DNA of 64,000 bases from Escherichia coli 042 (lineage in GTDB: Bacteria > Pseudomonadota > Gammaproteobacteria > Enterobacterales > Enterobacteriaceae): assembly GCF_000027125.1 (NCBI RefSeq), contig NC_017626.1. One strand, written 5' to 3'. A model generated the notes under the pieces. The model saw only the letters and a list, made by a program, of their open reading frames with translations. It was not told the DNA's origin and ran no database searches. How positions within the stretch are numbered: position 1 is the stretch's first letter; each line of letters begins with the position of its first letter. The position numbers were made by a program, and so were the translations under genes. Shown in pieces: positions 16,202-31,953 of the stretch.

Positions 16202-16206
16202 AGATT

Positions 16207-16231
16207 AGCGCCCGTTTCCGGGCGCTTTTCA
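16207..16231. terminator. rho-independent terminator between cmoB and convergent torZ
   Basis: agcgcccg-tttc-cgggcgct hairpin followed by TTTT. Confidence 0.7.
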
Positions 16232-20935: not shown

Positions 20936-21502
20936 TTACGCCGACTGCTCGCTGGCAACGATCTCTTCAATGGACCACGGATGAAATTTAATGGTCGTTT
21001 TGCCATCGGTGACCGCCAGCGTCGGATTCGGTAATCGCTCACGCTCACCTTTTGGCGAACTGGTTTTAACTGAGATCCCCGGCAGGCTGAGTCCTTCATC
21101 AGAAAGCAATGCCAGCGCACGGGCATTCAGCGTTTCTGGATCACCCGGCAGAACGATTTCAATATGTTCCCAACCTTCGTGCGGGTAACGTTTTTCCCCG
21201 GGCCACGGTAGCTCCACAATGGAAAACTGCCAGTGCGCAACCTGTACCGGTTCATGCAATTTAAACAGACAAATCGGTCTGCCATTGATCATATTTTCTG
21301 ACAAAAGCTCGCCGCACTGTTCAAACCCGCGACGCCAGCGTTCAGCGGTGACGTTTTGATGGCAACGCAAGGAAATGTGATCGGCAGTCAGCGGAGTGAT
21401 ATCCAACCCCAGACGGCGGGAAAGTTCATCTAATGCGTGGGTAAATCGCGGTAAATCCGATGCAATATCCTGCAGCTCGTCGATAGATTGCCAGTTCGCC
21501 AT
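20936..21502 (-). CDS. yecM: VOC/glyoxalase-fold protein YecM
   Basis: About 188 aa from MANWQSIDELQDIASDL; the exact start (21502 vs 21508) is uncertain. Confidence 0.85.
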   Translation of the reverse strand: MANWQSIDELQDIASDLPRFTHALDELSRRLGLDITPLTADHISLRCHQNVTAERWRRGFEQCGELLSENMINGRPICLFKLHEPVQVAHWQFSIVELPWPGEKRYPHEGWEHIEIVLPGDPETLNARALALLSDEGLSLPGISVKTSSPKGERERLPNPTLAVTDGKTTIKFHPWSIEEIVASEQSA

Positions 21503-21717
21503 AATCACTCTTCGTCTTTCAGTAAAAGCGTTAATTTACCCTGTTGCCCTGCGCCAACCAACCGCTGATTTCACGCCGCTTCTGATGCAATAGTGAAAAC
21601 GGCAATACGCCACGCGCACGTTGCTGACGAAAACAGCCATTTGCAGTATACTCCCGCCCTAATTTCTTTAACTGGTGCGGGCAATTTTTGCTCGCTTCAT
21701 CAATGTAAGGTATTCCG

Positions 21718-23451
21718 GTGAATATTCAGGCTCTTCTCTCAGAAAAAGTCCGTCAGGCCATGATTGCGGCAGGCGCGCCTGCGGATTGCGAACCGCAGGT
21801 TCGTCAGTCAGCAAAAGTTCAGTTCGGCGACTATCAGGCTAACGGCATGATGGCAGTTGCTAAAAAACTGGGTATGGCACCGCGACAATTAGCAGAGCAG
21901 GTGCTGACTCATCTGGATCTTAACGGTATCGCCAGCAAAGTTGAGATCGCCGGTCCAGGCTTTATCAACATTTTCCTTGATCCGGCATTCCTGGCTGATC
22001 ATGTTCAGCAGGCGCTGGCGTCCGATCGTCTCGGTGTTGCTACGCCAGAAAAACAGACCATTGTGGTTGACTACTCTGCGCCAAACGTGGCGAAAGAGAT
22101 GCATGTCGGTCACCTGCGCTCTACCATTATTGGTGACGCAGCAGTTCGTACTCTGGAGTTCCTCGGTCACAAAGTGATTCGCGCAAACCACGTCGGCGAC
22201 TGGGGCACTCAGTTCGGTATGCTGATTGCGTGGCTGGAAAAGCAGCAGCAGGAAAACGCCGGTGAAATGGAGCTGGCTGACCTTGAAGGTTTCTACCGCG
22301 ATGCGAAAAAGCATTACGACGAAGATGAAGAGTTTGCCGAGCGTGCACGTAACTACGTGGTAAAACTGCAAAGCGGTGACGAATATTTCCGCGAGATGTG
22401 GCGCAAACTGGTCGACATCACCATGACGCAGAACCAGATCACCTACGATCGTCTCAACGTGACGCTGACCCGTGATGACGTGATGGGTGAAAGCCTCTAC
22501 AACCCAATGCTGCCGGGTATCGTGGCGGACCTGAAAGCCAAAGGTCTGGCAGTAGAAAGTGAAGGCGCGACCGTCGTATTCCTTGATGAGTTCAAAAACA
22601 AGGAAGGCGAACCGATGGGCGTGATCATTCAGAAGAAAGATGGCGGCTATCTCTACACCACCACTGATATCGCCTGCGCGAAATATCGTTATGAAACGCT
22701 GCATGCCGATCGCGTGCTGTATTACATCGACTCCCGTCAGCATCAACACCTGATGCAGGCATGGGCGATCGTCCGCAAAGCAGGCTATGTACCGGAATCC
22801 GTACCGCTGGAACACCACATGTTCGGCATGATGCTGGGTAAAGACGGCAAACCGTTCAAAACCCGTGCTGGCGGTACGGTGAAACTGGCCGATCTGCTGG
22901 ATGAAGCCCTGGAACGCGCACGCCGTCTGGTGGCAGAGAAAAACCCGGACATGCCAGCTGACGAGCTGGAAAAACTGGCTAACGCGGTTGGTATTGGTGC
23001 GGTGAAATATGCGGATCTCTCCAAAAACCGCACTACCGACTACATCTTCGACTGGGACAACATGCTGGCGTTTGAGGGTAATACCGCGCCATACATGCAG
23101 TATGCTTACACGCGTGTATTGTCCGTGTTCCGTAAAGCAGAAATTGACGAAGAGCAACTGGCTGCAGCTCCGGTTATCATCCGTGAAGATCGTGAAGCGC
23201 AACTGGCAGCTCGCCTGCTGCAGTTTGAAGAAACCCTCACCGTGGTTGCCCGTGAAGGCACGCCGCATGTAATGTGTGCTTACCTGTACGATCTGGCCGG
23301 TCTGTTCTCTGGTTTCTACGAGCACTGCCCGATCCTCAGCGCAGAAAACGAAGAAGTGCGTAACAGCCGTCTGAAACTGGCACAACTGACGGCGAAGACG
23401 CTGAAACTGGGTCTGGATACGCTGGGTATTGAGACAGTAGAGCGTATGTAA
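21718..23451 (+). CDS. argS: arginine--tRNA ligase
   Basis: 577 aa; GTG start; HVGH class I motif. Confidence 0.96.
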
Positions 23452-23466
23452 TCGCGTTATACGGCA

Positions 23467-23500
23467 AAAGCCGATGTCATGGCAGACATCGGCTTTTTTA
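23467..23500. terminator. rho-independent terminator between convergent argS and flhE
   Basis: aaaagccgatgtc-atggca-gacatcggctttttt hairpin. Confidence 0.8.
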
Positions 23501-23503
23501 TCA

Positions 23504-23896
23504 TTAACGATAATTCACAATCACTTCATTCCGTTGTACCTTTAGCGGCGGAATTAACCGCCCACCGCCAGACACTTCCCAGATAAATCGCAACGGTTCT
23601 ATCGCCGGTATACCGGAAAAGGCCACGGTGGTTCCACTCTGCCCTTCTAATTCGACACAACGAGATTGTGAACACAAGCGAACCCGCAGTCCTGCAGGTG
23701 TCGGGCCGATAAGCTGATAACGCCACGCCACCAGCGTCATCATTCCTGCAGCAGGTTGTCGAGTAGAAAGAGGCGCTGACGACATCGACTCACCACGGTG
23801 ATTCAGCGTAACGCCCACACTACTCGCCTGCCACATCCCCTCCCCGGCGGCTTGCACCAGCAGCGGAAACAATAATATTGCTAATAAGGTTCTCAT
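23504..23896 (-). CDS. flhE: flagellar protein FlhE
   Basis: 130 aa, MRTLLAILLFPLLVQAAGEG; 1-nt overlap with the flhA stop. Confidence 0.92.
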   Translation of the reverse strand: MRTLLAILLFPLLVQAAGEGMWQASSVGVTLNHRGESMSSAPLSTRQPAAGMMTLVAWRYQLIGPTPAGLRVRLCSQSRCVELEGQSGTTVAFSGIPAIEPLRFIWEVSGGGRLIPPLKVQRNEVIVNYR

Positions 23897-25974
23897 CATT
23901 TACCGCCAATTGTCGCCGTCATGCGGATATGTCGGTTATCAGATAGTTCCAGATTCGACAGCACCACTAACTGCGGCAAGCTGCGGCGCAGGAAGCGAGA
24001 CAATAATGGTCGCAGCGCGTGGTTCACCAATAAAACTGGCGGCGCACCCAACATCTCCTGACGGGATAGCGCTTCCTGAGTTTGCGCCAGCAAACGATCC
24101 GCCAGCCCTGGCTCCAGTCCGCCCCCACCCTGCAACGCCTGTAGTAACAAACGTTCCAGCGGCGTATCAAGGCCAATAACATGGACTTCATCTTTGCCAG
24201 GAAACCACTGCTGGGTAATCGCCCGTCCCAACGCCACGCGCACGACGGCGGTTAATTCATGTGGATCGCTTTGGATGGGCGCATGTTCCGCCAGCGTTTC
24301 GAGAATGGTGCGCATATCGCGAATCGGTACTTTTTCATCGAGGAGATTTTGCAGCACTTTATGCAGTGTGGTGAGCGTGACGACGCCAGGAACGAGATCT
24401 TCCGTCAGCTTTGGCATCTCCTGGGCGACGCGATCCAACAGCTGTTGCGCCTCCTGACGACCAAACAGCTCTGCGGCATGCTGGCTAATGAGGTGGTTAA
24501 GATGCGTTGCCACCACCGTGCTGGCCTCAACCACGGTGTACCCCTGAATCTGCGCCTGTTCTTTAAGCGCACTTTCAATCCAGATAGCATTCAGGCCAAA
24601 TGCCGGATCGACGGTCGCCTCACCAGGTAACGTCCCGGCAGCGGTACCAGGGTTAATCGCCAACCAACGCCCCGGATAAGCATCACCACTGCCTATCTCC
24701 ACGCCTTTCATCAAAATGCGATAGCGGGCAGGTTGCAGATCCATATTGTCGCGAATGTGCACCACCGGCGGCAGAAACCCCATCTCCTGGGCAAATTTCT
24801 TGCGAATACTGCGTATACGGCCCAGCAACTCACCATCCTGCTGGAAATCGACCATCGGGATCAGGCGATAACCCACTTCCATTCCCAGAGAATCTTCAAG
24901 TTGTACATCGTTCCACGTCGCTTCGACAACGGCATTATTCTCTGCCATTTTTACCGGTTTTGGTTCGGCAGGCGCTTTTTGTTCGCGTCCGCGGATCCAC
25001 CAGGCCAGCCCAAGCAATCCGGCAGTGAACAGCAAAAATACCAGGTTCGGCATTCCAGGCACCAGGCCGAGTAAACCGAGCACGGCGGCGCTTAACAACA
25101 TAACGCTCGGGTTACTGAAAAGCTGATTCACCATCTGCTCGCCAACATCCTGATCGGTGCTGACACGCGTAACGATGACCCCGGCGGCGGTAGAAATCAC
25201 CAGCGCCGGGATTTGTGCCACCAGACCGTCGCCAATGGTCAATAGCGTATAACTTTCCGCGGCGTGTCCCATGCTCATGCCATGTTGCAGCACGCCGACC
25301 AGCAACCCGCCGACAACGTTAATGACCATGATGAGGATCCCGGCGATGGCATCGCCGCGAACAAATTTACTTGCCCCGTCCATTGAGCCGTAAAAATCGG
25401 CTTCCTGAGTCACTTCGGAGCGGCGTTTTTTCGCCTCATCTTCACCAATCAATCCGGCGTTAAGGTCGGCATCAATCGCCATCTGCTTACCCGGCATACC
25501 ATCGAGAACAAAGCGCGCGCCCACTTCCGCAATACGCCCGGCACCTTTGGTGATAACCATAAAGTTGATGATCACGAGAATGACGAACACCACGATACCG
25601 ATAGCGAAATTGCCACCAACGAGGAAGTGACCGAACGCTTCGACCACCTTTCCAGCCGCCGCCGCGCCGGTATGCCCTTCCATCAAAATGATACGGGTTG
25701 AAGCCACGTTAAGTGCCAGACGCAACAGCGTGGTAAACAACAGGATGGTCGGAAACGCAGCAAACTCAAGCGTGCGCTGGGTAAACATCGCCACCAGCAA
25801 CACCATGATCGACAAGGCAATATTGAAGGTAAACAACAGGTCGAGTATGAATGCGGGCAGTGGCAGCACCATCATCGACAAGATCAACAGGATCAAAATC
25901 GGTCCGGCAAGGATCTGCCATTGTGTCGATTTCAGGTTTGCGGGCAGGCGCAGCATCGCGGCCAGATTACTCAT
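23896..25974 (-). CDS. flhA: flagellar type III export apparatus protein FlhA
   Basis: 692 aa from MSNLAAMLRLPANLKSTQWQ; the ORF track over-extends by 25 codons. Confidence 0.95.
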   Translation of the reverse strand: MSNLAAMLRLPANLKSTQWQILAGPILILLILSMMVLPLPAFILDLLFTFNIALSIMVLLVAMFTQRTLEFAAFPTILLFTTLLRLALNVASTRIILMEGHTGAAAAGKVVEAFGHFLVGGNFAIGIVVFVILVIINFMVITKGAGRIAEVGARFVLDGMPGKQMAIDADLNAGLIGEDEAKKRRSEVTQEADFYGSMDGASKFVRGDAIAGILIMVINVVGGLLVGVLQHGMSMGHAAESYTLLTIGDGLVAQIPALVISTAAGVIVTRVSTDQDVGEQMVNQLFSNPSVMLLSAAVLGLLGLVPGMPNLVFLLFTAGLLGLAWWIRGREQKAPAEPKPVKMAENNAVVEATWNDVQLEDSLGMEVGYRLIPMVDFQQDGELLGRIRSIRKKFAQEMGFLPPVVHIRDNMDLQPARYRILMKGVEIGSGDAYPGRWLAINPGTAAGTLPGEATVDPAFGLNAIWIESALKEQAQIQGYTVVEASTVVATHLNHLISQHAAELFGRQEAQQLLDRVAQEMPKLTEDLVPGVVTLTTLHKVLQNLLDEKVPIRDMRTILETLAEHAPIQSDPHELTAVVRVALGRAITQQWFPGKDEVHVIGLDTPLERLLLQALQGGGGLEPGLADRLLAQTQEALSRQEMLGAPPVLLVNHALRPLLSRFLRRSLPQLVVLSNLELSDNRHIRMTATIGGK

Positions 25975-27115
25975 GGGTCGGTTTCTCGTTAATAAAATCC
26001 AGGGCTTCCGGCACCGGAAGATGAGTAGGTTGTACAGGGCGCTGTCCACCGGCCAGACGCCAGCGTTTCAGTTGCCAGACCCAGGCCAGCACTTCCGCCA
26101 CCGCGGCGTACAGTTGACCCGGGATTTGTTGACCGATCTCCGCATGTCGATACAGCGCACGCGCCAGCGGCGGCGCTTCAAGCGTAGGGACGTTATTTTC
26201 AGCGCCAATTTCACGAATGCGCAGCGCGACCAGCCCTGCACCTTTAGCGACCACTTTCGGTGCGCTCATTTTGTTTTCGTCATACTGCAACGCTACCGAA
26301 TAGTGGGTCGGGTTATTGACAATGACATCCGCTTTCGGCACATCGGCCATCATCCGACGCCGCGCGGCAGCTCGCTGCATCTGACGGATCCGCCCTTTAA
26401 CATGGGGGTCGCCTTCGCTTTGTTTGAACTCATCACGAATATCCTGCCGCGACATACGCAGCTTTTTCAGGTGGCTGAAAATTTGGAAAAAGACGTCAAA
26501 TCCCACCATTGGAATGACACCAAGCACCACCAGCAGTGCGCATAGCCCTACCAGATCCATCGCATTACCCATGGCGGTAATCGGAGACTCGGCCATTAAG
26601 CGCATCATCTGCGGCCAGTGATGCCAGAGAAAAAACCCCGTCACGCTGCCAACCAGGATGGTTTTCAAAATTGCTTTAAGTAACTCCGCGCCAGTCTGTG
26701 CCGAGAACATCCGTTTAATCCCCGGTAGCGGGTTGAGTTTGGAAAACTTCGGCTGCAAGGATTTGCCGCTAAATACCAGCCCCCCCAACATGACCGGAGA
26801 AATGAGCGCCACCAGCACCACGCCGCTAATCAGCGGCAGCAGCGCCAGCATGGCTTCTCTGATCAGCAGAATAATTTGCCCGAGGATCAGATTCGGGTCA
26901 TTGATAATACTGTGATCAAAATGCAGCCCAGCGGAGAGCATGCCCGACAATCGACGGGCCAGCGACACACCGCCAAACCAGATAACACTAACGCCCACCA
27001 GCAAAATCAGCAGTGAAGTCAGTTCACGGGAACGCGGGATTTGCCCCTCTTCCCGCGCTTTTTCTAGTCGGTGAGGTGTGGGGGCTTCTGTTTTGTCGTC
27101 GCTCTCGTCAGACAC
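25967..27115 (-). CDS. flhB: flagellar export apparatus switch protein FlhB
   Basis: 382 aa; contains the NPTH autocleavage motif; 8-nt overlap with flhA. Confidence 0.95.
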   Translation of the reverse strand: MSDESDDKTEAPTPHRLEKAREEGQIPRSRELTSLLILLVGVSVIWFGGVSLARRLSGMLSAGLHFDHSIINDPNLILGQIILLIREAMLALLPLISGVVLVALISPVMLGGLVFSGKSLQPKFSKLNPLPGIKRMFSAQTGAELLKAILKTILVGSVTGFFLWHHWPQMMRLMAESPITAMGNAMDLVGLCALLVVLGVIPMVGFDVFFQIFSHLKKLRMSRQDIRDEFKQSEGDPHVKGRIRQMQRAAARRRMMADVPKADVIVNNPTHYSVALQYDENKMSAPKVVAKGAGLVALRIREIGAENNVPTLEAPPLARALYRHAEIGQQIPGQLYAAVAEVLAWVWQLKRWRLAGGQRPVQPTHLPVPEALDFINEKPTHE

Positions 27116-30306: not shown

Positions 30307-31908
30307 TCAGGATACCACTGGCGCAATATGTAACTGCGCCGACTCATGTCGTGCTACTTCATGTTCTTCAAGGGTAAATACCGCCACACGCGACGAAAGA
30401 TGGTCAGCCTGGTTCGCCAGTTGTTCCGTTGCCGCCGCCGCTTCTTCTACCAGCGAGGCGTTCTGCTGTGTCACCTGATCCATCTGGCTGACAGCCTGCG
30501 CAACCTGCTCAATCCCCCGCCGTTGTTCTTCCGAGGCCGAAGCAATTTCTCCCATAATGTCGTTCACGCGGGTCACCGAACTGACAATATCAGTCATGGT
30601 CGCGGCGGCGTTATTCACCAGTTTCGAACCCTGCTGGACACGATTGACTGACTCTTCGATCAGCCCTTTGATCTCTTTTGCTGCCTGGGCGCTACGGCTG
30701 GCAAGATTGCGCACTTCACCTGCCACTACCGCAAAACCACGCCCCTGCTCTCCGGCGCGAGCCGCTTCCACTGCCGCATTCAGGGCCAGAATATTGGTCT
30801 GGAAAGCAATGCCGTCGATAACGCTGATAATGTCGCCAATTTTTTGCGAGCTGGTGGCGATCTCCTGCATGGTGTGAGTCATGGTACTGACCTGAACACC
30901 GCCCGCCTGCGCCGTTGTCGCGGCATTTTTTGCCAGTTCCGACGCCTGGCGCGCGTTATCGGCGTTTTGCCCTACCGTGGCGGTTAATTGCTCCATACTG
31001 GCGGCCGTTTGTGCCAGCGATGCCGCCTGCTGTTCGGTACGACTTGAGAGATCGTTATTGCCTGCGACAATCTCCGCGATACCAATGTGCATCTCCTGGC
31101 TTCCCTTACGCACATCACTTACCGTCCCACGCAAAGCCTGCTGCATGGTCTTCAGACTGGCAAAAATGGCGGTGATCTCATTGCGACCATATACCGCAAT
31201 CGGACGCGCCAGATTACCCGCAGCAATGCTGTCAAAATGGCTACCGATAATGGCCAGTGGTTGAACAATCATCTTGCGCGTCCACCACAGCGCACTGCTG
31301 ATGTAGATCGCCGCAACAATAATCATGCTGATAAACACCAGCGCCGAAATCTGATAGTTACGCTGGCTTTGCGCACTGGCAGCTTCCAGCACATGGTTGA
31401 TCTCCTGCTGCCAGGCCTCAAAGTTAACGTCAAACGCATTCTGTGATTCCTGCACCGGCGCAGTGAGGAAATCCGAAAGTTGATTACTTTCAAGCCAGGT
31501 CGCCTGATGTTCGAGATCGTTGTGCCAGCGGGCAAAACTTTTCTCCGTCTCTTTTTGCAACGCCCTGACGTGCTCGTAGCCCGCAGTCATCGCCATAAAA
31601 CTTTTAAACAGCGTGGTGGATTGCGTCAGACTGGCGCGCGCCGTCGTCATCAACGTTTTAATGTCATCCGCCGGATAGCTAAGCGCCGTCAGAGTGCCCG
31701 CTTTGTTCAGCGCGGTACTGGCCTGTAACATTACCGCCCGAGTTTGCGCTAATGCCGCACGTTGCTGATTGCTCTGCTCGACCTGATTCAGTCGTTGCAA
31801 ATCGTCGCGAAATGCCCAAAAAGACATGCCGTTACTGCCAATCTGCAAGATCCCGCAGAGAATCAAAATTAAAAACAGCGTGGTCGAAATTCGAATACGA
31901 TTAAACAT
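30307..31908 (-). CDS. tap: methyl-accepting chemotaxis protein IV (dipeptide/pyrimidine), Tap
   Basis: 533 aa; C-terminal NWETF-less MCP signalling domain; second MCP directly downstream of tar. Confidence 0.93.
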   Translation of the reverse strand: MFNRIRISTTLFLILILCGILQIGSNGMSFWAFRDDLQRLNQVEQSNQQRAALAQTRAVMLQASTALNKAGTLTALSYPADDIKTLMTTARASLTQSTTLFKSFMAMTAGYEHVRALQKETEKSFARWHNDLEHQATWLESNQLSDFLTAPVQESQNAFDVNFEAWQQEINHVLEAASAQSQRNYQISALVFISMIIVAAIYISSALWWTRKMIVQPLAIIGSHFDSIAAGNLARPIAVYGRNEITAIFASLKTMQQALRGTVSDVRKGSQEMHIGIAEIVAGNNDLSSRTEQQAASLAQTAASMEQLTATVGQNADNARQASELAKNAATTAQAGGVQVSTMTHTMQEIATSSQKIGDIISVIDGIAFQTNILALNAAVEAARAGEQGRGFAVVAGEVRNLASRSAQAAKEIKGLIEESVNRVQQGSKLVNNAAATMTDIVSSVTRVNDIMGEIASASEEQRRGIEQVAQAVSQMDQVTQQNASLVEEAAAATEQLANQADHLSSRVAVFTLEEHEVARHESAQLHIAPVVS

Positions 31909-31953
31909 CAACGCTCCCCATCAGGCGGCAATGACCGCGTTAGTAAAAACTCG

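What the first reader, a model, noticed from the sequence alone, without database searches (positions are those of the whole stretch)
23452..23503. yecT is absent: argS and flhE are separated only by a 52-bp terminator hairpin
In K-12 MG1655 a roughly 0.5-kb ORF (yecT) lies between argS and flhE, as I recall it. Here the argS stop at 23451 and the flhE stop at 23504 are bridged only by one bidirectional hairpin. This is strain-level gene-content variation at a convergent junction, and it indicates the source is not a K-12 derivative.
Basis: partly seen in the sequence, partly recalled or inferred. Interest (0 to 1): 0.3.

Follow-up and report, generated by a model that had tools for sequence, protein, structure and literature searches.

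The report
Common yecT-less argS–flhE junction allele
This E. coli strain lacks the small accessory gene yecT between argS and flhE and has a single conserved terminator hairpin there instead, which is an ordinary variant shared by about a third of sequenced E. coli.

Summary
argS ends at 23451 and flhE ends at 23504. The 52 bp between them hold one strong hairpin (23466-23497) and no yecT.

The window is 97.4-98.0% identical to K-12 over about 27 kb, so it is not a K-12 derivative.

This is a common two-allele junction, not a peculiarity of one strain:
- 1775 of 5426 complete E. coli genomes (33%) have the short spacer. Examples are Nissle, UPEC129 and an ST38 isolate.
- 3642 genomes (67%) match the yecT segment. 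Examples are K-12, O157:H7, O111:H8 and KO11FL.
- The short spacer, with an identical hairpin stem, also occurs in E. albertii and a cryptic-clade genome.
- The yecT allele also occurs in E. whittamii and Escherichia sp. E1V33.

The two alleles share almost no sequence between the two stop codons. The yecT segment has 39% G+C against 53% in its flanks. The window therefore most likely keeps an old, possibly ancestral, state rather than a recent deletion.

YecT is an LprI/DUF1311 protein. Its roughly 60%-identical relatives sit in T6SS effector-immunity islands or beside flagellar genes, so an orphan-immunity role is plausible but untested.

The finding is ordinary and of low interest.

The parts
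21718..23451 (+). argS (arginine--tRNA ligase), 577 aa, stop TAA at 23449-23451
   Evidence: ORF list. It is 99.8% identical to RefSeq ArgS by tblastn and matches the annotation of the identical region in NZ_CP076709.
23452..23503 (.). 52-bp argS-flhE spacer: the yecT-less allele of the junction
   Evidence: Sequence. The same 64-bp junction is found in 1775 of 5426 complete E. coli genomes. It aligns with E. albertii, a cryptic-clade genome and Nissle.
23466..23497 (.). Hairpin. Core stem is 23470-23478 / 23485-23493, loop 23479-23484, with A4 on the 5' side and T6 (23494-23499) on the 3' side. Most likely the intrinsic terminator of argS and possibly also of flhBAE.
   Evidence: Free energy -24.1 (+) and -25.1 (-) kcal/mol, z -4.85 and -5.43. 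The terminator scan hits it on the + strand. The 8 outer pairs of the 9-bp core stem are invariant and the innermost pair varies only C-G to U.G (Nissle), while the loop varies in sequence and length across four Escherichia lineages.
23504..23896 (-). flhE (flagellar protein FlhE), last gene of flhBAE, stop codon at 23504-23506
   Evidence: ORF list. Pfam FlhE, E = 1e-40. Annotation of the identical region.

Best explanation
The window carries the yecT-less allele of an old two-allele junction between the convergent genes argS and flhE.

In this allele the whole intergenic space is one conserved stem-loop. It ends argS transcription (GC-rich 9-bp stem followed by U6). Read on the other strand, it probably also helps end the flhBAE transcript (same stem followed by U4).

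Nothing was recently deleted. The short spacer is inherited and is shared with E. albertii and a cryptic Escherichia clade.

The alternative allele, found in K-12, O157 and B1-type E. coli, E. whittamii and Escherichia sp. E1V33, replaces this spacer with a 784-bp AT-rich segment. That segment carries yecV and yecT with their own promoter and hairpins. I infer, with about 0.6 confidence, that the AT-rich segment is the derived, horizontally acquired state and that it moved between Escherichia lineages by homologous recombination in the conserved flanks.

The practical consequence for this strain is that it lacks YecT, an LprI/DUF1311 protein with a predicted signal peptide. Its role is unproven; an orphan immunity or lysozyme-inhibitor role is the leading guess.
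For: Shown by tool results:
- Anatomy and hairpin statistics.
- MG1655 and a K-12-type genome have yecV and yecT in a 784-bp spacer.
- Homology between the alleles stops 3 nt after the argS stop codon and resumes at the flhE stop codon, which is TAA here and TGA in K-12.
- 1775 of 5426 genomes have the short allele and 3642 match the long one. The two counts sum to 5417, so they are nearly complementary.
- The short allele is present in E. albertii and a cryptic-clade genome; across the four aligned lineages the stem differs at one position only (C-G to U.G in Nissle) and the loop varies.
- The long allele is present in E. whittamii and E1V33, with 5.5-8.3% divergence across the spacer.
- The yecT segment has 39% G+C and 34% GC3, against 53% G+C and 58% GC3 in argS.
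- No IS element, integrase or tRNA lies in or next to the 784-bp segment. The only flanking repeat is an 11-nt one near chance expectation.
- flhE differs by 6.4% between allele classes and 1.7-2.6% within them. K-12-type flhE is as close to E1V33 flhE (5.7-6.5%) as to yecT-less E. coli flhE.
- Salmonella, Citrobacter and Enterobacter carry other genes at this junction, so it is a variable spot across genera.

From the literature: the yecT promoter is activated by BglJ-RcsB and affected by H-NS/StpA, as is typical of acquired AT-rich genes (PMC3950696).
Against: - Polarity is not proven. Outgroup genera have different content at this site, so they do not root the change.
- yecT is old in three Escherichia lineages, and its coding sequence is better conserved (2.9-4.3% nt divergence) than argS (5-6%). 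That fits long vertical residence followed by loss elsewhere.
- The two alleles' argS terminators align weakly (score 15 against 9.8 +/- 1.3; 1 of 500 shuffles reaches it). The short form could therefore be a deletion derivative that kept the terminator.
- Only 8-9 E. coli genomes were compared for flanking divergence, and the allele classes coincide with deep phylogroups. The flhE contrast may simply reflect population structure.
- Termination in either direction was not measured. The flhE-side U-tract is short, and in Nissle-type strains it is interrupted (AACAGCC).
Confidence: 0.75

Rival explanations
1. Ancient loss. The yecT-bearing 784-bp spacer is ancestral for E. coli and its nearest clades. 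The short spacer arose once by deletion from just after the argS terminator to the flhE stop codon, and later spread by recombination.
For: - yecT is present in E. coli, E. whittamii and E1V33 with species-level divergence in the spacer.
- The best local alignment of the 52-bp spacer to the 784-bp spacer falls exactly on the K-12 argS terminator (score 15; 1 of 500 shuffles reaches it).
- Both alleles have a T-run followed by a loosely similar stretch of about 10 nt before the flhE stop codon. This rests on my reading of the sequences.
Against: - The short spacer is shared, with an identical stem, by E. albertii and a cryptic clade that are 6-9% diverged at argS. It is therefore at least as old as those splits.
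- The long allele's hairpin stem sequence is quite different.
- The 39% G+C of the segment marks it as foreign DNA.
Confidence: 0.25
2. Recent strain-specific deletion of yecT in this isolate or its clone.
For: None beyond the absence itself.
Against: - The identical 64-bp junction occurs in 682 genomes at 99% identity or better, and in 1775 genomes overall.
- It also occurs in other Escherichia species.
- No yecT remnants are present.
Confidence: 0.02
3. Assembly or collapse artefact at the junction.
For: None.
Against: The same junction is found in 1775 complete genomes from many laboratories and sequencing platforms, and both flanking genes are intact.
Confidence: 0.01

Closest known systems
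E. coli K-12 MG1655 argS-yecV-yecT-flhE region (b1876, b4778, b1877, b1878)
   Same: The flanking genes are the same and are convergent in the same way. argS is about 98% identical and flhE about 94%.
   Different: The 784-bp spacer carrying yecV and yecT is replaced here by a 52-bp spacer. The only detectable similarity is a weak one between the two argS terminators.
yecT-less junction annotated in RefSeq genomes such as E. coli Nissle 1917, UPEC129, an ST38 isolate and O158:H23 CFIAFB20140388
   Same: The architecture is identical, with argS and flhE 52 bp apart. Window 23000-24000 is 100% identical to O158:H23 CFIAFB20140388, and the 64-bp junction is 100% identical to the ST38 isolate. Nissle-type strains differ by 2 of 64 positions.
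   Different: Nothing of substance. Nissle-type strains have AACAGCC instead of AAAAGCC and a U.G pair in the stem.
Bidirectional intrinsic terminators between convergent bacterial genes (general class; recalled from my own knowledge of E. coli transcriptome studies, not checked here)
   Same: A single GC-rich hairpin flanked by an A-tract and a T-tract lies between two convergent stop codons.
   Different: The tracts are asymmetric: U6 for argS but only U4 for flhE. No termination data exist for this allele.
LprI/DUF1311 orphan immunity genes of T6SS islands (Pantoea agglomerans hcp island, PMC9796082; EHEC Etsi4, PMC12981562). This concerns the missing gene, not the window.
   Same: YecT matches Pfam LprI (E = 1e-17). 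It has an N-terminal hydrophobic leader ending in AYA, read from the sequence by eye. Its 60%-identical homologues lie in vgrG islands downstream of Pesticin-, CHAP- or GH19-domain proteins.
   Different: E. coli yecT is not near any T6SS gene. No effector partner is known and no inhibition has been shown. Other close homologues lie beside flagellar genes in organisms of 30-35% G+C.

Membership tests
Intrinsic (Rho-independent) terminator | Stable GC-rich stem-loop | tested here: met
   9 GC-rich pairs extended by 4 A-U pairs. Free energy -24.1 kcal/mol, z -4.85.
Intrinsic (Rho-independent) terminator | U-tract immediately 3' of the stem in the argS direction | tested here: met
   T6 at 23494-23499. 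The scan calls it on the + strand.
Intrinsic (Rho-independent) terminator | U-tract immediately 3' of the stem in the flhE direction, needed for the claim of bidirectionality | tested here: inconclusive
   Only UUUUGCCG follows the core stem on the - strand, and the scan did not call it. In Nissle-type strains the tract is UGUU.
Intrinsic (Rho-independent) terminator | Conserved pairing with a free-to-vary loop across relatives | tested here: met
   Eight of the nine core stem pairs are invariant in the window, Nissle, the cryptic-clade genome and E. albertii; the innermost pair changes only C-G to U.G in Nissle. The loop is 6 nt in two of them and 9 nt in the other two, with different sequence. 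With pairing conserved this way there is no fully compensatory (double) change.
Intrinsic (Rho-independent) terminator | Measured transcript 3' ends at the site | not testable with these tools
   No transcript 3'-end data for a yecT-less strain were available to me.
K-12-type yecV-yecT segment | Presence of yecT or yecV sequence in the window | tested here: not met
   tblastn and blastn against the whole window give only chance-level hits.
Mobile-element-borne island (applied to the yecT segment) | IS element, integrase, tRNA target or flanking target-site duplication | tested here: not met
   Only yecV and yecT are annotated in the segment. The only boundary repeat is an 11-nt GATAATTCACA pair, with chance expectation about 0.1.
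Pfam LprI / DUF1311 (YecT, the missing protein) | Score above the Pfam gathering threshold | tested here: met
   64.8 bits against a cutoff of 22, E = 1.1e-17. The AF2 model (pLDDT 74.7) best matches DUF1311 structure 3gi7, TM 0.80 normalised to the target.
T6SS immunity protein (YecT) | Encoded next to a cognate effector | tested here: not met
   E. coli yecT lies between argS and flhE. Only its 60%-identical homologues lie in vgrG islands. At most it would be an orphan immunity gene.
T6SS immunity protein (YecT) | Neutralises an effector or protects against T6SS attack | not testable with these tools
   This needs competition or binding assays.
UmoC family flagellar biogenesis regulator (NCBIfam NF041434) | Score above the NCBIfam cutoff | tested here: not met
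   36.1 bits against a cutoff of 120. Homologues score 23-31 bits. The resemblance is only the shared DUF1311 fold.

The most novel reading that the evidence does not exclude
yecT is an orphan T6SS immunity or lysozyme-inhibitor gene. It would be derived from the vgrG-island immunity genes of Enterobacter/Cedecea-type T6SS clusters, or from a low-G+C donor, and parked at a recombination-accessible junction beside the flagellar regulon. Its presence or absence would be an old polymorphism shared across Escherichia species. yecT-less strains like this one (about a third of sequenced E. coli, including Nissle- and ST38-type strains) would then differ systematically from K-12, O157 and B1-type strains in susceptibility to a class of peptidoglycan-degrading T6SS effectors or to lysozyme.
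Probability: 0.25. Interest if true: 0.45.

Novelty: already known. Interest (0 to 1): 0.15.

Why it matters
It matters little by itself. It is a lineage marker: it excludes K-12, and more generally the yecT-bearing strains sampled here (K-12, O157:H7, O111:H8, KO11FL).

The modest wider point is that a K-12 gene of unknown function is missing from a third of the species. That gene is regulated by BglJ-RcsB and H-NS/StpA, and its relatives sit in T6SS effector-immunity islands. If YecT proves to be a functional inhibitor of peptidoglycan hydrolases, this junction would be a simple natural knockout series for testing it.

Tried and rejected
- Rfam scan of 21000-26500 at E <= 1 found nothing at the spacer, only a chance SgrS hit inside argS.
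- Test for a repeated element: the hairpin is single-copy in the window and essentially single-copy per genome (1777 places in 1775 genomes). It is not a REP-type repeat.
- Search for yecT remnants or a relocated yecT in the window found none.
- Test for mobile-element signatures around the K-12 segment found none that was convincing.
- I asked whether the T6SS loci holding YecT homologues are from E. coli. Megablast of L033 and L034 against 5426 E. coli genomes gave no match. The conserved 386-aa neighbour points to Enterobacter, Cedecea, Pantoea or Shimwellia.
- UmoC membership was rejected on score.
- PDB sequence search with YecT found nothing meaningful. The fold search gave only the DUF1311 structure 3gi7, plus a weak match (E = 6.6, TM 0.69 normalised to the target) to 4nsr, an entry titled 'Immunity protein' that a review table brackets with the V. 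cholerae VgrG3/TsiV3 effector-immunity pair. I treat this as a lead only.
- I could not cross-tabulate alleles against phylogroup for all 5426 genomes, because the search tool lists at most 60 rows. Phylogroup statements rest on a few named strains and on my own knowledge of their phylogroups.
- The flhA columns of the divergence table are off by 3 nt for the window and the non-coli loci, so those cells were ignored.

Full report
**What is in the window**

argS occupies 21718-23451 on the + strand (577 aa), with stop TAA at 23449-23451. flhE is on the - strand with its stop codon at 23504-23506. It is followed upstream by flhA and flhB. The spacer 23452-23503 is 52 bp long.

The spacer holds one hairpin:
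- A4 tract at 23466-23469.
- Stem GCCGATGTC at 23470-23478.
- Loop ATGGCA at 23479-23484.
- Stem GACATCGGC at 23485-23493.
- T6 run at 23494-23499.

It folds at -24.1 kcal/mol on the + strand (z = -4.85; none of 200 shuffles as stable). On the - strand it folds at -25.1 kcal/mol (z = -5.43). The consensus scan calls it a terminator on the + strand only. On the - strand the core stem is followed by UUUUGCCG, which is four U residues.

The hairpin is unique in the window. It has no Rfam match. Neither YecT nor the K-12 spacer DNA has a meaningful match anywhere in the 64 kb.

**The K-12 comparison**

MG1655 (NC_000913.3) has this order:
- argS b1876, 1960062-1961795.
- yecV b4778, 15 codons, - strand.
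- yecT b1877, 1961972-1962460, 489 bp.
- flhE b1878, 1962580-1962972.

Its spacer is therefore 784 bp. A K-12-type O16:H48 genome shows the same arrangement.

In a pairwise alignment, homology stops 3 nt after the argS stop codon and resumes at the flhE stop codon, which is TAA here and TGA in K-12. The alleles are therefore alternative spacers, not a clean deletion of one from the other.

The only similarity inside is a weak alignment of the two argS terminators (score 15 against 9.8 +/- 1.3 in shuffles; 1 of 500 reaches it). The window is 97.4-98.0% identical to K-12 over about 27 kb.

**How common it is**

Against 5426 complete RefSeq E. coli genomes:
- The 64-bp junction (spacer plus 6 nt each side) is present in 1775 genomes (32.7%). 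Of these, 682 match at 99% or better and 1093 at 95-99%.
- The K-12 784-bp spacer matches 3642 genomes (67.1%), of which 3554 hold at least 80% of it.
- The two counts sum to 5417, so the alleles are nearly complementary.

Named carriers of the short allele include a Nissle 1917 derivative, UPEC129, APEC PSUO2 and an ST38 isolate. The long allele is in K-12, O157:H7, O55:H7, O111:H8, O103:H2 and KO11FL.

From my own knowledge of these strains' phylogroups, the split is B2/D-type against A/B1/E-type. I could not tabulate this for all genomes.

The window's own junction is 100% identical to the ST38 isolate's junction. Window 23000-24000 is 100% identical to O158:H23 CFIAFB20140388.

**Beyond E. 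coli**

A genome-collection scan with FlhE found 30 loci.

The short spacer is also in E. albertii and in a genome labelled E. coli SCPM-O-B-8794. That genome's argS is 7-9% diverged from E. coli, so it is effectively a cryptic clade. Across the window, Nissle and these two genomes the core stem is identical apart from one C-G to U.G change in Nissle, and the loop differs in sequence and length.

The yecT allele is in E. whittamii and Escherichia sp. E1V33. Against K-12, the spacer there is 5.5-8.3% diverged and the yecT coding sequence 2.9-4.3% diverged.

Salmonella, Citrobacter, Enterobacter, Pluralibacter and Cedecea have other genes between flhE and argS. From the ORF translations, without a family search, these look like a sugar:cation symporter-like protein of about 527 aa, a 379-aa protein, and in some a PBP2-like protein. 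The junction is thus a variable spot across genera, and within Escherichia both alleles predate species splits.

**Which state is derived**

Evidence that the yecT segment is the acquired state:
- It has 39% G+C and 34% GC3, against 53% and 58% for argS.
- Its promoter is reported to be activated by BglJ-RcsB and affected by H-NS/StpA (PMC3950696). Both features are typical of acquired DNA.
- The short allele in E. coli is clearly the same sequence as in E. albertii, so it descends continuously from an early Escherichia ancestor and was not recreated by deletion.
- flhE, which abuts the segment, differs by 6.4% (minimum 5.9%) between allele classes and 1.7-2.6% within them. The last 600 nt of argS show no such contrast.
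- K-12-type flhE is as close to E1V33 flhE (5.7-6.5%) as to yecT-less E. coli flhE.

Together these fit the long allele entering the lineage of the yecT-bearing E. coli strains by recombination that also took in flhE.

The sample is only 8-9 genomes and is confounded with phylogroup. I put 'short is ancestral, long is gained or introgressed' at about 0.6, and ancient loss at about 0.25. No mobile-element signature was found. The only boundary repeat is an 11-nt GATAATTCACA pair at the yecT stop and the flhE stop, close to chance expectation.

**How it most likely works**

- In the argS direction, the hairpin followed by U6 is a canonical intrinsic terminator placed 15 nt after the stop codon. 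This follows from sequence features and conservation; termination itself is inferred.
- In the flhE direction, the same stem starts 6 nt after the flhE stop codon and is followed by U4. This is plausible but weaker, and weaker still in Nissle-type strains where the tract is interrupted. It is inferred and untested.
- In the K-12 allele, argS has a different hairpin followed by U6. The segment also carries further hairpins between yecT and flhE.

**What the strain lacks**

YecT matches Pfam LprI/DUF1311 (E = 1e-17). It has an N-terminal hydrophobic leader ending in AYA, which I read from the sequence by eye rather than with a prediction tool. Its AF2 model (pLDDT 74.7) best matches the DUF1311 structure 3gi7, with TM 0.80 normalised to the target.

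There is also a weak match to 4nsr, an entry titled 'Immunity protein' that a review table brackets with the V. cholerae VgrG3/TsiV3 effector-immunity pair. It is a lead only.

Outside Escherichia the closest relatives are 59-64% identical and occur in two settings:
- T6SS vgrG islands, immediately upstream of a PAAR gene and a conserved 386-aa protein. These lie downstream of large proteins with Pesticin-, CHAP- or GH19-type domains. The 386-aa neighbour's named relatives come from Enterobacter, Cedecea, Pantoea and Shimwellia.
- Contigs of 30-35% G+C. In one of them (L044) the gene lies beside a fliK-flgD-flgE cluster, and there its G+C matches the host DNA.

Published work treats LprI/DUF1311 proteins in T6SS islands as immunity or orphan-immunity proteins against lysozyme-like effectors (PMC9796082, PMC12135965 and PMC12981562). 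An orphan-immunity or lysozyme-inhibitor role for YecT is therefore plausible.

A flagellum-linked role is the alternative. YecT nevertheless fails the NCBIfam UmoC cutoff by a wide margin, 36 bits against 120. None of this was tested functionally.

**Verdict**

The feature is real and correctly described. It is an ordinary accessory-gene presence/absence allele that is already visible in public annotation, so interest is low. The only potentially interesting thread is the untested idea that yecT is an orphan immunity gene held as an old polymorphism across Escherichia species.

Noticed in passing
window 16203-16207 (cmoB-torZ spacer): The window lacks a roughly 133-bp REP/BIME-like element that K-12 (L036 5361-5493) and Nissle both carry between cmoB and torZ. 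This is another small intergenic presence/absence difference.
   Followed up: partly
window ~30308-31909 (- strand; coordinates by alignment to K-12): tap (methyl-accepting chemotaxis protein IV) is present in the window, whereas Nissle has only a frameshifted remnant between cheR and tar. The window combines the yecT-less junction with an intact tap.
   Followed up: partly
window 12000-36000: No complete RefSeq E. coli genome matches this 24 kb better than 99.0% (best is O158:H23 CFIAFB20140388), although 23000-24000 is 100% identical to that genome. This suggests a mosaic region or an unsampled lineage.
   Followed up: no
L001 2613-2623 and 2742-2752 (K-12 allele): An exact 11-nt direct repeat, GATAATTCACA, lies at the yecT stop codon and at the flhE stop codon, 129 bp apart, next to the right edge of the allele-specific segment. 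It is close to chance expectation (about 0.1) but oddly placed.
   Followed up: no
L033, L034, L046 (T6SS loci) and L044, L045 (low-G+C contigs): YecT homologues (59-64% identical) occupy a fixed slot just upstream of PAAR in T6SS vgrG islands, behind CHAP-, Pesticin- or GH19-domain proteins. In contigs of 30-35% G+C they lie in a pepX-LprI-257aa arrangement, which in L044 sits beside fliK-flgD-flgE.
   Followed up: partly
window 23504-23899 (flhE) compared with L036, L038-L043: flhE falls into two haplogroups that track yecT presence or absence: 6.4% nt divergence between them and 1.7-2.6% within. There are 10 fixed differences in roughly 23504-23953, none in the next 450 bp of flhA, and none in the last 750 bp of argS. 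The sample is small.
   Followed up: partly
window 21889-23385 (- strand): A 498-codon ORF runs antisense to argS. It is almost certainly a non-coding shadow ORF of the argS frame.
   Followed up: no
L008, L012, L018 and other Salmonella/Citrobacter loci, 3400-6390: In other genera the flhE-argS interval holds a symporter-like protein of about 527 aa, a 379-aa protein and, in some, a PBP2-like protein. The junction is a multi-genus hotspot for variable gene content. These descriptions come from reading the translations only.
   Followed up: no
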